A DNA stretch of 64,000 nucleotides from Mizuhopecten yessoensis (taxonomy: Eukaryota), in assembly GCF_002113885.1 (NCBI RefSeq), contig NW_018408679.1, forward strand, positions 420,324 to 484,323, given 5' to 3'. The stretch's first letter is position 1. The number at the start of each line of letters is the position of its first letter. This document shows positions 8,601 through 58,530 of this stretch, one piece after another. Under the pieces are notes generated by a model. That model did not search any database. It worked only from the letters and a program-made list of their open reading frames with translations, and was not told the DNA's origin. The position numbers and the translations under genes were made by a program.

Positions 8601-11302
8601 ATGTATCAAGTGAAATCTGGATTAACATATCAGAAATTCAGTTTCTTTTGATTTATAATATTCTCTTAAGTTTGATAATTTCTATTGTCACCCATGTAAA
8701 ATACTAGCCGCTTCCTACCGACTCCGCTAAGGAGAATTTCTCTTTAGCTCATTCGGTAGAGCGTAAGACTATATAAAGCAAGCCAGAGTTTGACTCCTGG
8801 CAGAGGCATTGAAAAAATAATTACCTCTGCTAGTCATTGGCACCCATGTAGGGACCGGGAGATTTAATAAAAATACTTAGCAATGCTGATGCTTACAAAG
8901 GAATCGCTACGACACTTGGAAAACTTGGGACAACTTCTTTCCTGGAGGGGGAGTATGTCACTCCGGTTATACAAGCTGCTTCCTACCAACTCAGCTAGGG
9001 AGAATTTCTCTTAAGCTCATTCAGTAAAGCGTAAGACTAGTAAGCCAGAGGTCCCGGATTCGACTCCTGGAGGAGCCATTGAAAAAACAATGACCTCTGT
9101 GTTACACTATAATTTATTAAATATAAATATACAAAATTTGATTTCAACCAAGCTCATATCTCGTGTGTCCGGCTCAGTTTGAACCTCAATTCTAAGTGTG
9201 CATATATTTAGGCATAAATGATTTTCAACCACTGTAGTGCAGTTACCAGGTTACAGTACGATACTCTGATCACTAATGCAACACATATTGCCTGCGCCTT
9301 CTATTAAACAAAATAAAGACTAAGGTCTCTTTCCCGTTTCGGGTTTATCTGTTTTTAATCGTAACATTTTCGTGTTTGAATCCTGGCAGACTTGCAAATG
9401 TTTATGTAGGCCTTGTTATGTTTTCTGAAGGCCTGCCTGTTAGCAGCATCAGAATACTAGGTCCAACCTTTTTTTATAAACAAACAAATCTGGTTGAACC
9501 GGTTGGATCGCGATAAATGAATGCGTCCTAAGTGAAGCATGCACTCCCATACTCAACCTAGCACAAGTGTTCTATCTATATGTTATACTCCACAGAGACC
9601 AAAATGGCTTTAATGTGGAGGTGTTAACAATTGAGCCACGTGCTTCTGCATAAATATGTAAAAGTATGACATAGTCTTCAAATTCCCTACCCTTATATAT
9701 TCACATTACAGTAGGGTAGGGCTGACCTAGTCTGCTAAAACTGACCATAATACAGGTCGTTCCGGCCCCCGAGTTGTTCTGTCCATAGTCGTTCCGACCT
9801 TAGTAGTTCCGGCCCCTACCCGGTCCAGCCCCGTATACTTAGTCGTTCCGGCCTCATATATTATATATATGATTCATATTTATTTGGAATTAAATTTTAA
9901 ATTAAATTTATTTATATAATGGATAATTCATGTTACTTATTCAAATAAATAAAATTAAAAATTGTACATTTGTTGACTTTTCATTTTACATGTTGTCTAA
10001 AACAAAATACACCTGTGTAAATATACGGAGTAAGATTGCTTTTAAAGACACATTACAATCATTCTTTTGTTTATTTTATAACCTCGTGCGTTTGAAACTG
10101 TATGGCTTCTAGAAAACGCTGTGTAAACACCATGCGTGTATAGTCTACCGACGTTTTTACTTTTAGTTGATGAAAGACGTTGAATTTTTTTGTCATCACA
10201 TCTTGTTAAAATCGATCTTCGTCGATCTTCCTAGTGTGAAGATGCAAATTTGTATGATTTCAACTAAACAGACAGTCGGCAACTTGAATAGAATAATTTT
10301 AATACGGATATCGGCATTCCTCCGGGCTGTGTCCAAGCTTTGTGCCCCAGGGTTTCCAGAGAGAAGTGTGTTAATGACAATGGACAAATAGTATTGTGAA
10401 TTAATTGTGATCGAAAATTGTGAAATTTAATATCGGTAATGCTATATATATATGTTATTAATTCATGTTCTGCTACATAATTAATAATGTATGAAAGTTA
10501 AATGTGTTTGGTCTGTCGTAATAATATGTGGACATATGTCATAATCTATTTTCACGAGGTATATTGTACTTTTCTAAACTAAGTTCGTAATTATTAAGAA
10601 ATACTGTAAGCTAACTTATTTGCTATACTGTAAGCTAACTTATTTGCTATTTATTAAATATATGTTGTTATTGTTGATTGCATTAAATATTAAATAATGA
10701 ACAAAATGTATCATGTTTTTTCTCGTCTTTTGATCAATGTATGAATAACTGTTACATCCGAATTTATATAAACATTCGATCCATTCATAAAACATAACAA
10801 TGGTGGATATGTAAAGGAAAACGTAAACACTATATAGAGCCGGAACGAATAAGGGGCCGGAACTGCTAGGGACGGACCGGGTAGGGGCCAGAACTACTAG
10901 GGGGCCGGACCGGGAGAGGCCGGAACGACTTGATACGGACTAGGTGCCCGTGACTGAACCAAACTAGGCAACATATCGTCATATATGTTAAGAAGCCGCT
11001 GGTGGTCTATTTTTTTTCGGACATTATCGCGCGGAGTACGATAGCGCTTGTCAAAAGTATTTCGCCGTGTAACCTCTAACATTGATGGAGTAAGCAACAT
11101 AATTAAAATGTTGATTATAAAGCTATCTGCATCGCATACACTGTAGTTGCCAACAATTAGAAATACGATTGATATAAGTATTTACATTCAATCTACCCTC
11201 TTTCAATGCAGTTTCATTGAAATGCCCAACTGAGCTCTGTCCGCCAAGCAAATTGATCCATTTTGACGTAAAACCGGTACGCACATGCCGGAGAGCCGCC
11301 AT
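2673..11302 (-). CDS. OXA1L: Mitochondrial inner membrane insertase OXA1L, 5' part (gene continues beyond the left edge)
   Basis: Exons 11302-11186 (MAALRHVRTGF..., presequence-like; boundary less certain), 8595-8425, 7290-7086 (LGEPSLASMGLGNYTPSGLYQHGLEFLHVGVGMPWWEAIL), 3685-3542 (TILVRVLSIPL...) and 2758-2673 (FMKETNTNPLRSMMYPMLQ). All introns are GT-AG with matching phases 0,0,1,1,0. Motifs match the Oxa1/YidC family TM1 and coiled-coil region. Confidence 0.9.
4400..4545. mobile_element. Long imperfect hairpin element
   Basis: ~60-bp arms, ACAATTGTGGACTTCAG...AACAATATTC and GAATATTGTT...CTGAGGTCTATAATTGT, around a short loop. Confidence 0.55.
5010..6990. repeat. 40-bp minisatellite (about 32 + 7 copies) interrupted by a transposon fragment
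   Basis: Unit GGCTGTCAGATCAGAGGTAAATCCTACCTTACTGGCCATA at 5010-6300 and 6710-6990, in OXA1L intron 3. Confidence 0.95.
6301..6710. mobile_element. DNA transposon end fragment (Zator-like GGCC/TTA terminus)
   Basis: 6420-6712 aligns with 41385-41682. Both end in ...TTTGGCC-TTA. Confidence 0.6.
8686..9106 (+). mobile_element. TRIM (miniature LTR retrotransposon) with tRNA-derived LTRs, Helenus-like
   Basis: 151-bp LTRs at 8686-8836 and 8956-9106 (TG...CA). PBS TGGCACCCATGTAGGG at 8838, PPT GGAGGGGGAG at 8944-8953, 4-bp TSD CTAT. Each LTR contains an A box (TAGCTCATTCGG) and a B-box-like motif. Confidence 0.88.
9753..10935. mobile_element. Non-autonomous DNA transposon with TIRs built from GTCGTTCCGGCC subrepeats
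   Basis: Left 9753-9860 has GTCGTTCCGGCC repeats; right 10835-10932 has the inverted GGCCGGAACGAC repeats. Interior is AT-rich. Confidence 0.75.
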
Positions 11303-28754: not shown

Positions 28755-29005
28755 CCTACTCTTACCCCACTCCACTACCTCTATGACCTATGACCAATAC
28801 TCTAATCCAAATTTCTACACTATGACCCATACTCTAATCCCTGTCATCTACCACTATGACCTATGACCCACACTCTAATCCCATTCTTCTACCCTTACAA
28901 CCAATGACCTATATTTTATCCCCTTCCTCTACCCATACTCTAATCCCCTTCTTCTACCTCTATGAACTATGACCCATACTCTAATCACCTTCCTCTACCC
29001 CTACC
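28755..29005. repeat. Degenerate ~41-bp tandem repeat spanning the FBXL8 stop codon and 3' UTR
   Basis: TATGACCCATACTCTAATCCC...CTAC recurs about 6 times; the last copy overlaps the codons V-E-E-G-D-stop. Confidence 0.75.
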
Positions 29006-30183
29006 ACCCAGGGCTCTGGGTCAGCTGTCCACTTCAGTATGTAGTCCTTCTTTTCCTTAATCAGAGCTGAGGAGGCCAAAATCCCCTCCACAACCTCTTT
29101 CTTTAGCGCACAATAAACATATATGGATTTCAGCAGTTTGCATGTCCTTGCTAAGTTAAGGAGAGCTGCTCCAAGCTCGTCAGAATTTCTGGTCTGTAGG
29201 ACAAGCTTCTCCAAGGTGGAACTGTAGAAGGCTGCAGCAAGGTTCACCTCCTCAAAGATCCTTGTGAAAGTTTCAAGTCTGAGATCTCTAACCGGGATAT
29301 CTGGCTGCATTAGATCTTTCACTCTGTTAAGTGGACATGTGTGGTCAAATCCCAGACTGACCCTGAGGTTAGGTACAGCGGTCACCAGGCCTTGCCACAC
29401 CTCAGACGTCAGTGTTTTGTTGTACTTCTCTTCCCTTCTACACACTATTTCCAGATGTTCCACAGGGGTTCTGTCACTTTCCGCGAAACATGCAAGAATG
29501 TCGTCCGATAAACTGCAATGGTACGCCATTAGTTCTGTTAATTTTCTGCACTTCTGAACAAGATATAGTATCGCAGAGGGACTCACCTTACAAATCAACA
29601 TTCTGTTGAGAATGTTTAACGACTGTAAGTTTGGATGGTTTTCAGCCAAAATTGTAAAAACAGAATCGTCATATGCTGCAGTGAGACCACTCAGGTCTAC
29701 ATGTAAGATCTGTGACAATGGTGGTCTAATGGTAGGTGGAGTCGGACCAAACAACGCCCTCAAGGCAGCCACAAATTCAGCTCCCGCATAGAATAAAGGG
29801 TTCTCACCAGTAAACGTAACCGTAATGGCTGACAGCTGACGACCTGCCGAAGTAGCCAGCAACTCAATTACACGACAGGCGTAGTGTCTGTTCTCCTGGT
29901 CACTCTGATCTAGTGTGAGCCTTATACCCCGCAGGTGGTGCCCATGCTTGGCTAGGAACTGACTGTAGCCTAACATGTGGTCCTTTTTTGGGTTCACAGT
30001 AGACAGAAAACGGAAGTGAAAGTGGCGCCACAGACAGGGCTGGTTAAAGCAAGTCTGCCATGTGTGGCAGACAAGTGACGCATTGTAACGGTCGGTAGGG
30101 CCAAGATGCAGGAGTATTTGCACCACTATGTGGTCAGGAAGTGTTGACCAGCTCTGTAGCTCAAAGCAACTAGCAGCATCCAT
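28981..30183 (-). CDS. FBXL8: F-box/LRR-repeat protein 8
   Basis: 400-aa ORF with an N-terminal F-box (WSTLPDHIVVQILLHL...LVCHTW). FTGENPLFYAG, LMQPDIPVRDLRL and C-terminal LKWTADPEPW correspond to FBXL8 motifs. Splice acceptor at 30240; probable upstream non-coding exon ending at 32075. Confidence 0.88.
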   Translation of the reverse strand: MDAASCFELQSWSTLPDHIVVQILLHLGPTDRYNASLVCHTWQTCFNQPCLWRHFHFRFLSTVNPKKDHMLGYSQFLAKHGHHLRGIRLTLDQSDQENRHYACRVIELLATSAGRQLSAITVTFTGENPLFYAGAEFVAALRALFGPTPPTIRPPLSQILHVDLSGLTAAYDDSVFTILAENHPNLQSLNILNRMLICKVSPSAILYLVQKCRKLTELMAYHCSLSDDILACFAESDRTPVEHLEIVCRREEKYNKTLTSEVWQGLVTAVPNLRVSLGFDHTCPLNRVKDLMQPDIPVRDLRLETFTRIFEEVNLAAAFYSSTLEKLVLQTRNSDELGAALLNLARTCKLLKSIYVYCALKKEVVEGILASSALIKEKKDYILKWTADPEPWVVGVEEGD

Positions 30184-30482
30184 GTCTCATTAAAGAGGAC
30201 AGTCAGAAATGGGTCGGCATTCTATACAAGATGGACCGACCTGTGTGGAATAAAAGATAAATAAATATTAATTTCTTTTCTTGAATTGAACATTTTATCA
30301 TTTAATGAAAAAAAAATATGACCTGTTGAGGTAAATAGCTAACTGTGACTGTTGCAGCATAAAACCTGAGTGAGCCCATTATATATATATTTGGCCTATT
30401 AACTCTTCAACAATTGAGCTATACAGCTGTAAAGACCTACACTATAGCTATAACCACCTATAATTTATAGCTATATTGAGCT

Positions 30483-30682
30483 CAGTGTTCTCCCAAAATT
30501 GTTTTGAAAGAAGCATGTTATTTCAATATTTCTGTAAAAGCAGCACTCTATGAAAAATCAAAGCAGCATGGTAACTTTAGATTTACTATGAATATATAGC
30601 AGAGAAGATCTAGGATAGCAGCATGGCAAGAAATTATAGGAGCATGGTGCCATGCTGCAAATACAGCCTGGGGAGAACACTG
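30483..30682. mobile_element. hAT-like MITE with 5-bp TSD
   Basis: TIR CAGTGTTCTCCC / GGGAGAACACTG, with GAGCT on both sides. Confidence 0.75.
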
Positions 30683-31176
30683 GAGCTATGTTTTCTTAGA
30701 TTTTAGTTTTGATAAAAATTCAGCAAAGTTGCATAAAACTATACATATGTGAATAGGTTTTATGGAAATGTTGACAACGAAAAGCAATAACAGTAAGAGG
30801 TATATATTTGTTTTCCATAAAGGAAAAGTAAAAATTCAAACTTCTTTACAACATTTAAAAAAAAAAATCTGTTTTATTGAAAATTACGTGAAAATAGTTC
30901 AAAAGACTGACATTGTATTTCAGATAGGTCGATACAACTATTACAGGTCTTTATAGAGCTATATAGGTTTTTCAACAAAATCTTTGTTCCCAACGATGCA
31001 CAAGATCCTATACACTAGCTTATAAGCATCCATGGGTATTTTAAGTTGGGCATCAAATGTAACAAGAAAAGAAAATTGCAATGACCAGATGGGGTTCAAA
31101 CCAGAGACTTCCAATCTCTGGACTGCATGTATAAAAGATGTACGTGGATTGATTAGGTTGCCTTACAAACGTCAGA

Positions 31177-31656
31177 CATAAGGGATTTCCCTTTAGCTCA
31201 GCGGTAGAGCATCTGGCTGGAGAGCCAAGGGTCGTGGGTTCAAGCCCCAGCAACGGCACTATCTTTACCACTATTCCTCGTCCTACAACAAACTGGGTTG
31301 GTGTTTGAAAAAAGGGAGGAATAGTGTAAAAGATTTCCCATTAGCTCAGCAGAAAGAGTGTCGGGCTGGAGAGCCAATGGTGGTGGGTTGGAGCCCCAGC
31401 GACGGCACTATCTTTAATTTATCACTATTCCTCGTCCTACTACAAACTGGTGATGTTGACCCTCCCTGTTCAAGGTAGGAGAACCCTTGGCAGGGAGTCA
31501 AAGATTCTGGGTTGGTGTTAGAAGAAAGGGGAATAGTGTAAAGGATTTCCCTTTAGCTCAGCGGTTAGAGTGTCGGGCTGGAGAGCCAAGGGTTGTGGGT
31601 TCGAGCTCCAGCGACGGCACTATCTTTATCACTAACTAATTCCTCGTCCTACTACA
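31177..31656 (+). mobile_element. Tandem three-LTR TRIM with tRNA-derived LTRs
   Basis: LTR-like units at 31177-31290, 31325-31444 and 31537-31656 (TGTAA...TACA in units 2 and 3; unit 1 reads CATAA...CAACA), each with A and B boxes. TGG PBS-like sequence at 31448. Purine tracts AAAAAAGGGAGGAATAG and AGAAGAAAGGGGAATAG lie directly before LTR2 and LTR3. Confidence 0.8.
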
Positions 31657-32074
31657 TATGCCATGAACCTGGTCGACAGTGATCAACCCAGTCCACTCCA
31701 CTGCTACTGTTATAGAATATAAATTATATATAGATATACACTGGGAAATTGACATAATGTTAGAAACTTAAATTGCACATCACTATATATAGTACAGGCA
31801 TGTTTGGTAAAACGTGTCTATTTTGCAATCCTGCAAAAATACATAGCAAAACGAAGTAAAAATATATAGGCCTAATAAACCTTAAGTTTTACAGTTTTTA
31901 CAAGTTCCTGTGGTACAGTACAGTAAATAAAGTTAATGTTTAACAAACTAGGCTAAGCCATATAATGATTTACACCACGGAATTAGATTATCTAAGTCCG
32001 TGGTTACACTATATTGGCAGCAAATGATCCGATCTATAGCATTGCATAAGAAGAATAAAACATAGGAACTGTAC

Positions 32075-38862: not shown

Positions 38863-58530
<19,668 letters not shown>

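What the first reader, a model, noticed from the sequence alone, without database searches (positions are those of the whole stretch)
31177..31656. Second tRNA-LTR TRIM family arranged as LTR-int-LTR-int-LTR
Seen: three ~115-120-bp repeats, each with an A box (TAGCTCAGCGG in LTR1 and LTR3), a B box (GGTTCRAGC in LTR1 and LTR3, GGTTGGAGC in LTR2) and a CT-GGA-GA loop at the anticodon position. The second spacer has a PBS-like TGGTGATGTTGACCC, an internal hairpin (GACCCTCCCTG...CAGGGAGTC) and a PPT. The first spacer is a deletion derivative that keeps only the PPT. Tandem shared-LTR arrays are known for Cassandra TRIMs. The LTR flanks, PBS and loop differ from the 8686 family, so two Pol III-driven TRIM lineages coexist here. 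A minus-strand tRNA-like fragment ending TTACA (31068-31130) may be a third. No TSD is visible.
Basis: partly seen in the sequence, partly recalled or inferred. Interest (0 to 1): 0.7.

Follow-up and report, generated by a model that had tools for sequence, protein, structure and literature searches.

The report
Decayed triple copy of Helenus retrotransposon
This is an old, damaged copy of a published miniature jumping gene (Helenus-4) that landed inside another such element and was likely duplicated in place, so the locus is ordinary, but rare hybrid copies elsewhere in the genome likely record which tRNA and which larger retrotransposon copy these elements.

Summary
The repeats are real but belong to a published family, Helenus-4_MiYe (Kojima 2024), a tRNA-LTR TRIM; an intact genomic copy has the published 157-bp LTR and 94-bp interior. 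The true element is 31130-31656: full LTR1, interior lacking 60 nt, then two LTRs sharing a 43-nt U3 deletion found only here. It has a 4-bp target duplication (3 of 4 match). Among sampled copies 35 of 63 have exact 4-bp TSDs; solo LTRs and two-LTR copies dominate and arrays are rare (3 of 91). The array most likely arose by local duplication. The minus-strand 'third family' is the host: an uncatalogued Lys-primed Helenus LTR split by the insertion. New, and outside the window: nine Helenus-2/-4 copies carry a 16-20-nt perfect copy of host tRNA-His instead of their own primer site, and one is fused to the pol of a His-primed Gypsy family, a candidate helper. Pol III transcription was not shown. 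A split primer site was tested and stayed unsupported. The scan's earlier notes held nothing on this.

The parts
31126..31129 (+). left target-site duplication (CATG)
   Evidence: 3 of 4 match to 31657-31660; lies exactly at the break in the host LTR
31130..31290 (+). Helenus-4 LTR1, full length (161 bp), tRNA-like A/B boxes
   Evidence: 86% to the 157-bp LTR of copy L023; Rfam tRNA 23.2 bits, below cut-off
31291..31324 (+). interior 1, 60 nt deleted (primer site and hairpin lost), PPT kept
   Evidence: alignment to L023 interior; junction found in no other Helenus copy at <=1 mismatch
31325..31444 (+). LTR2, 43-nt U3 deletion
   Evidence: PPT/deletion junction occurs only twice in the genome, both here
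31445..31536 (+). interior 2, complete: decayed tRNA-His primer site 31448-31461, hairpin 31458-31499, PPT 31520-31536
   Evidence: 85% to L023 interior; host tRNA-His gene
31537..31656 (+). LTR3, same 43-nt U3 deletion
   Evidence: 106 of 115 aligned bases as LTR2; shares an extra D-loop base and a CA>TG change with it
31657..31660 (+). right target-site duplication (TATG)
31657..31708 (-). 5' half of the host LTR (further Helenus family, 127-bp LTR)
   Evidence: aligns just upstream of the other half in 17 of 17 copies tested
31058..31129 (-). 3' half of the host LTR
   Evidence: 75% to positions 62-127 of the LTR of copy L068
30971..31057 (-). host element interior with decayed tRNA-Lys primer site; PPT and 3' LTR not found
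   Evidence: alignment to L068 interior; host tRNA-Lys(CTT) gene

Best explanation
The feature is one old, decayed insertion of the published TRIM family Helenus-4_MiYe, sitting inside the 5' LTR of another Helenus element, and it likely became a three-LTR array by local duplication after it landed. Shown: family identity, ends, 4-bp target duplication, nesting, and that both deletions are private to this locus. Inferred order: a two-LTR copy integrated; its 3' LTR lost 43 nt of U3; the interior+LTR unit was duplicated by unequal exchange or slippage, giving LTR2 and LTR3; the first interior lost 60 nt between short matching words at the foot of its hairpin. How the family moves (inferred, partly evidenced): a transcript predicted to start at the tRNA-like A/B-box promoter in the 5' LTR is packaged by an autonomous Gypsy element, primed by tRNA-His, and integrated with a 4-bp duplication. 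tRNA-His priming is evidenced by copies that carry a tRNA-templated primer site; the Gypsy link by one chimera of the sister family Helenus-2; Pol III transcription is untested.
For: Motif-by-motif match to Helenus-4_MiYe in the paper's Data S1 (read by eye); published sizes 157/94/408, TSD 4 equal copy L023. 302 exact matches of a 21-mer, control 0. 91 loci drawn from the first 100 listed: 44 solo LTRs, 34 two-LTR, 2 L-I-L-I-L, 1 L-I-L-I, 10 other or fragmentary; exact 4-bp TSD in 35 of 63 end-intact copies, 50 of 63 with at least 3 of 4 (shuffles: mean 0.7 and 6.4). LTR2 and LTR3 share three derived changes that LTR1 lacks; the U3 junction exists only here. One RNA template should give all LTRs the same U3 (established LTR replication model), so a full LTR1 beside deleted LTR2/3 points to events after insertion. 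Array L111 also has two interiors with shared derived bases inside one TSD (read by eye). tRNA-His copy. Gypsy chimera.
Against: LTR2 and LTR3 (106/115, 92%) are not clearly more alike than LTR1 and LTR3 (104/114, 91%), and ordinary two-LTR copies show the same spread (139/155 to 147/157 in 10 copies), so the substitutions do not date the duplication; the case rests on three shared changes. It needs three local events. The two interiors share no derived base in the 32 positions left (30 alike). RNA-seq shows family reads on both strands, 77% running on into unrelated flanks, and no pile-up of starts or ends: no sign of a discrete transcript, though the library could not be expected to show one.
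Confidence: 0.8

Rival explanations
1. The three-LTR form was made during reverse transcription (template switch between two co-packaged RNAs, or a mis-placed plus-strand jump) and integrated as one piece; the U3 deletion came from a now-lost source copy or spread later by gene conversion.
For: One TSD bounds the whole array. Mis-placed plus-strand jumps do occur in this family and land at the same interior site where interior 1 resumes (L178; L186, L189, L193 in Helenus-2). Template switching is a proposed route to Cassandra arrays (PMC7215508, passages).
Against: Interior 1 carries no tRNA-templated bases beyond the shared TGG; no other copy has the U3 deletion junction or the interior-1 junction.
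Confidence: 0.13
2. Two separate Helenus-4 insertions nearby recombined between LTRs and lost the DNA in between.
For: Mechanism cited for bivalve and plant TRIM arrays (PMC6934838, PMC7215508, passages); would explain why LTR1 differs from LTR2/3.
Against: The two flanks are contiguous halves of one host LTR with a matching TSD, so no intervening DNA was lost.
Confidence: 0.04
3. The units are a tRNA gene cluster or tRNA-derived SINEs.
For: A and B boxes; weak Rfam tRNA similarity.
Against: No ARAGORN call here or in copies L013, L020, L023; TG..CA ends, primer site, PPT, solo LTRs and fixed 4-bp TSDs.
Confidence: 0.01

Closest known systems
Helenus-4_MiYe (Helenus / TRIMp3; Kojima 2024, PMC10886601; main text parts 1-5 of 6 read, supplement passages searched)
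   Same: Same family: LTR and interior motifs, 157/94-bp sizes, 4-bp TSD, tRNA-His-type primer site, A/B boxes.
   Different: This copy is decayed, has three LTRs, two private deletions and is nested. The main text has no 'nested', 'inverted' or 'hairpin' and infers primer and helper from sequence similarity only.
Helenus-2_PeMa / Helenus-1_ArIr (same paper, supplement passages)
   Same: The host element resembles their LTR and Lys-type primer site (by eye).
   Different: A 127/88-bp family with 1259 first-look candidates here that is not among the four MiYe families of Table S1; Repbase itself could not be searched.
Cassandra tandem arrays (PMC7215508, passages) and biv-TRIM (PMC6934838, passages)
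   Same: Non-coding TRIMs with solo LTRs and shared-LTR arrays; Cassandra has a small-RNA promoter in its LTR and a predicted fold closing the interior.
   Different: Cassandra uses 5S rRNA, is a plant element and has shown Pol III transcripts; biv-TRIM has no canonical primer site.
Ty3/Ty1 priming (PMC5371799, passages) and retroviral plus-strand strong stop (PMC8599865, passages)
   Same: In Ty3/Ty1 the primer site is usually not rewritten from the tRNA, which would let an imperfect site persist; retroviral RT copies 18 nt of the primer up to m1A58, the length seen in the rare copies here.
   Different: Those are autonomous elements; Ty3's bipartite site spans about 4800 nt. A bipartite site in Helenus was not supported by the shuffle test.

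Membership tests
Helenus (TRIMp3) | Two LTRs around a short non-coding interior, under 1 kb | tested here: met
   34 of 91 sampled loci are LTR-interior-LTR; 157+94+157 bp in L023
Helenus (TRIMp3) | tRNA-derived sequence with A and B boxes in the LTR, not a functional tRNA | tested here: met
   boxes seen; Rfam below cut-off, no ARAGORN call; tRNAscan-SE not available
Helenus (TRIMp3) | Primer-binding site complementary to a tRNA 3' end | tested here: met
   13 nt with one bulge pair with host tRNA-His in cofolds of L013 and L020; the window's own site has two further substitutions
Helenus (TRIMp3) | Polypurine tract before the 3' LTR | tested here: met
   31520-31536 and end of interior 1
Helenus (animal) | 4-bp target-site duplication | tested here: met
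   35 of 63 exact, shuffle mean 0.7; 5- and 6-bp lengths 1 and 0 of 41; window 3 of 4
Helenus-4_MiYe | Sequence identity with the published family | tested here: met
   exact motif hits and by-eye agreement with Data S1; sizes equal Table S1; no computed alignment to the published sequence
Helenus (TRIMp3) | Transcription by RNA polymerase III | tested here: inconclusive
   no T4 run on the sense strand of L023, L020 or the window's LTR2-LTR3 unit, one in L013 (absence expected often by chance); RNA-seq shows passenger reads only
Helenus (animal) | Mobilised in trans by Gypsy | tested here: inconclusive
   one Helenus-2 LTR fused through a tRNA-His copy to pol of a His-primed Gypsy family; no such fusion found for Helenus-4
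Cassandra | 5S rRNA sequence in the LTR | tested here: not met
   Rfam scan gave tRNA-like hits only

The most novel reading that the evidence does not exclude
The genome keeps a fossil record of Helenus replication: plus-strand strong-stop DNA carrying an 18-nt copy of the primer tRNA sometimes jumped to the wrong place or onto a co-packaged element. These chimeras prove tRNA-His/tRNA-Lys priming and name the helpers: a His-primed Gypsy family for Helenus-2 and -4, and several different Lys-primed LTR families for Helenus-3, so Helenus hitch-hikes on any element sharing its primer. A stem pairing U5 with the PPT/U3 junction in three of four families tested is the RNA signal that replaces LTR homology with the helper.
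Probability: 0.4. Interest if true: 0.6.

Novelty: already known. Interest (0 to 1): 0.33.

Why it matters
The locus itself is an ordinary decayed copy of a catalogued family. The by-products matter more: Kojima 2024 leaves open which autonomous elements move Helenus and how they recognise it. A simple search for 'LTR + perfect 18-nt tRNA complement + foreign DNA' gave direct, sequence-level evidence of the primer and a candidate helper, and can be run on any genome with Helenus, Cassandra or other TRIMs. It also adds an uncatalogued family whose copies can be mis-called as tRNA genes (ARAGORN calls two in L064).

Tried and rejected
(1) Bias of U3 deletions to the 3' LTR, suggested by the first search: an artefact of the deleted query; in the pattern-drawn sample 6 of 34 5' LTRs and 4 of 34 3' LTRs lack 10 nt or more, 3 both. 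(2) Ty3-like targeting of Pol III units: 12 of 19 neighbouring Helenus/tRNA-like hits lie within 300 bp (37% of flank, p 0.019), 8 of 13 without same-family hits (p 0.065), only 1 within 50 bp; weak clustering, no sharp targeting. (3) Split primer site (first box, hairpin, second box): the second box reaches its score in 101 to 1336 of 2000 shuffles in four His-type interiors, and the Lys-type family's best match lies elsewhere; cofold gives it 0.02-0.65 pairing probability; the prediction that the host family would have tRNA-Lys-copied, hairpin-less copies failed, 0 of 11. Left as a lead, resting on four natural copies joined at that box and by-eye conservation in oyster and scallop families. 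(4) A subfamily with the U3 deletion or the interior-1 deletion: none. (5) Expression of this locus: no RNA holder listed; 68 reads laid, 1 at 99% or better, none on the flanks: uninformative. (6) Foreign DNA behind L191 and L205 and before L197: no Pfam family in the frames scanned; L198 runs into an assembly gap. (7) Literature searches for a PPT/primer-site long-range pairing in non-autonomous elements (0 papers) and for aberrant second-strand transfer (0 papers) returned nothing; Helenus appears in 4 listed papers. The library lacks most subscription journals, and the supplement's figures were seen only as extracted text, so a drawn structure there could have been missed. (8) Earlier notes of this scan: 3 returned, none on Helenus.

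Full report
Observation. The three repeats, their A and B boxes, the primer-like site, hairpin and purine tract are in the sequence. They are not tRNA genes: ARAGORN finds none in the window and Rfam's tRNA model scores two units below its cut-off. A genome search with the LTR2-interior-LTR3 unit gave 1099 first-look candidates, 40 scored, 45 matches; a 21-mer from the LTR has 302 exact matches and its control 0. Against one intact copy (L023: 157-bp LTR, 94-bp interior) the window reads LTR1 31130-31290, interior 31291-31324, LTR2 31325-31444, interior 31445-31536, LTR3 31537-31656. Contigs from three DNA studies cross four junctions of the array without differences.

Identity. Kojima 2024 (PMC10886601; parts 1-5 of 6 of the main text) defines Helenus as TRIMs with tRNA-derived LTRs, 4-bp TSDs in animals and 51 families in pteriomorph bivalves. 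Searching its supplement with window motifs returned Helenus-4_MiYe, which agrees by eye along LTR and interior, and Helenus-1_MiYe for the element at 8686. Table S1 gives 157/94/408 bp and TSD 4, and lists four families for that scallop. The paper also reports co-existing families and tandem arrays. The finding is therefore a known family in a known arrangement.

Family behaviour. I took 91 loci from the first 100 of the 302 listed matches (second hits in one element merged, one place not fetched): 44 solo LTRs, 34 two-LTR copies, 2 three-LTR arrays, 1 L-I-L-I, 10 other or fragmentary. Of 63 with both ends, 35 have an exact 4-bp TSD and 50 at least 3 of 4; shuffled flanks give 0.7 and 6.4. 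The primer site pairs over 13 nt, with one bulge, with the host's own tRNA-His(GTG).

The host. The DNA on both sides of the array forms contiguous halves of one minus-strand LTR in 17 of 17 copies compared, followed by a decayed Lys-type primer site and most of an interior; no 3' LTR was found. This family (127/88 bp, 1259 candidates) resembles Helenus-2_PeMa and Helenus-1_ArIr and is not among the four listed families. Nesting does not show targeting: clustering of Helenus copies is weak.

How the array arose. LTR2 and LTR3 share a 43-nt U3 deletion, an extra D-loop base and a CA>TG change that LTR1 lacks. The deletion junction occurs twice in the genome, both here; the interior-1 junction is also private (8 matches, 4 control matches, only the window's is Helenus). 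By the standard LTR model one template gives all LTRs the same U3, so I infer deletion, then local duplication of interior+LTR, then loss of 60 nt from interior 1 between short matching words. Against this, pairwise identities (106/115, 104/114, 100/114) do not separate the LTRs and equal the spread in plain two-LTR copies. A reverse-transcription origin remains possible; recombination between two insertions is excluded by the intact host LTR.

How the family moves. Looking for Gypsy elements with a perfect tRNA-His site, I found 22 matches and fetched 20; 9 lie behind Helenus-4 or Helenus-2-like LTRs and match the tRNA for 16-20 nt although the families' own sites differ; 4 of the 9 have exact TSDs. 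Retroviral RT copies 18 nt of its primer before m1A58 (PMC8599865, passages), and in Ty1/Ty3 that copy is normally not inherited (PMC5371799, passages), which fits an imperfect family site with rare tRNA-templated exceptions. In L175 the tRNA copy leads, after 14 other bases, into 1.3 kb of pol from a decayed Gypsy-order family; next to the joint that family reads AGGAT like the end of the tRNA copy, and 2 of its 4 copies show a tRNA-His-type primer site that is not the perfect one. The Lys search gave 11 matches of 17-18 nt, 6 behind Helenus-3-like LTRs (by eye), none behind the host family; one is a foreign LTR joined to a Helenus-3-like interior and LTR inside a single TSD. I read these as plus-strand swaps between co-packaged elements. 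Limits: one Gypsy fusion, in Helenus-2 rather than Helenus-4, without a 3' end; the foreign LTRs were not traced. Searches found no report of this for Helenus, in an incomplete library.

RNA. U5 can pair with the PPT/U3 junction in three of four families tested; function untested. A split primer site failed its shuffle test and its prediction. RNA-seq reads of the family (701 and 948 in two runs, 19% of each read) fall on both strands, mostly run into unrelated flanks and show no start site, so Pol III transcription stays an inference from the boxes.

Verdict. Already known family, decayed copy, ordinary locus; interest 0.33, carried by the tRNA-copy chimeras, which make the open helper question directly testable.

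Noticed in passing
L175/L216 (G000:C2051, primer site near 781426) and L228-L231: Helenus-2 LTR + 18-nt tRNA-His complement + 14 other bases + 1.3 kb of decayed pol (PF00078, E 9e-10). The piece has 4 other copies at 82-88%; they belong to a decayed Gypsy-order family (zinc knuckle, protease, RT, RNase H, integrase) with a tRNA-His-type primer site in 2 of 4 copies and AGGAT next to the joint. No 3' LTR or TSD seen.
   Followed up: yes
L206/L219:8786-9245; L205; L197/L204: Foreign LTR + 18-nt tRNA-Lys complement + Helenus-3-like interior; in L219 followed by a Helenus-3-like LTR and bounded by one TSD (ATCA/ATCA). Three different foreign LTRs; their families were not traced.
   Followed up: partly
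L178, L180 (Helenus-4); L184, L186, L189, L190, L191, L193 (Helenus-2-like): Perfect 16-20-nt tRNA-His complement in place of the family primer site; L178, L186, L189, L193 resume right after the same interior box; 4 of the 9 such loci have exact 4-bp TSDs. Rare: 1 of 34 two-LTR copies in the sample.
   Followed up: yes
window 31261-31279 vs 31316-31334; L023, L020, L173, L066: U5 is complementary to the PPT/U3 junction in Helenus-4, Helenus-2 and the host family (0-8 of 500 shuffles in 6 copies, 33 and 66 in two others) but not in register in Helenus-1; the predicted transcript folds with this stem closing the interior, z -2.4.
   Followed up: partly
L066, L068 (host family): A T5 run on the sense strand in U5 would be expected to stop Pol III in the first LTR, which sits badly with the Pol III template model for this family.
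   Followed up: no
window 8686-9104 and 43428-43563: Two-LTR copy and a solo-like LTR of Helenus-1_MiYe.
   Followed up: partly
window 28981-30186 (-): Single-exon F-box gene (PF12937, E 3e-14); the nested complex lies about 0.8 kb upstream, perhaps in a 5' intron (splice-acceptor-like sequence seen by eye near 30245).
   Followed up: partly
window 30420-30963: Block bounded by 19-nt inverted arms (79%) right where the host element's interior breaks off; perhaps a MITE-like insertion; single in the window.
   Followed up: no
L017, L191: LTRs that look mosaic between Helenus-2 and Helenus-4 (by eye and partial BLAST hits).
   Followed up: no
L007, L020, L025, L111, L133; L066 and L169 in other families: Other arrays: three identical LTRs beside an assembly gap (L007), four LTRs (L020), three LTRs in one TSD (L025, L111), six partial LTRs (L133).
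   Followed up: partly
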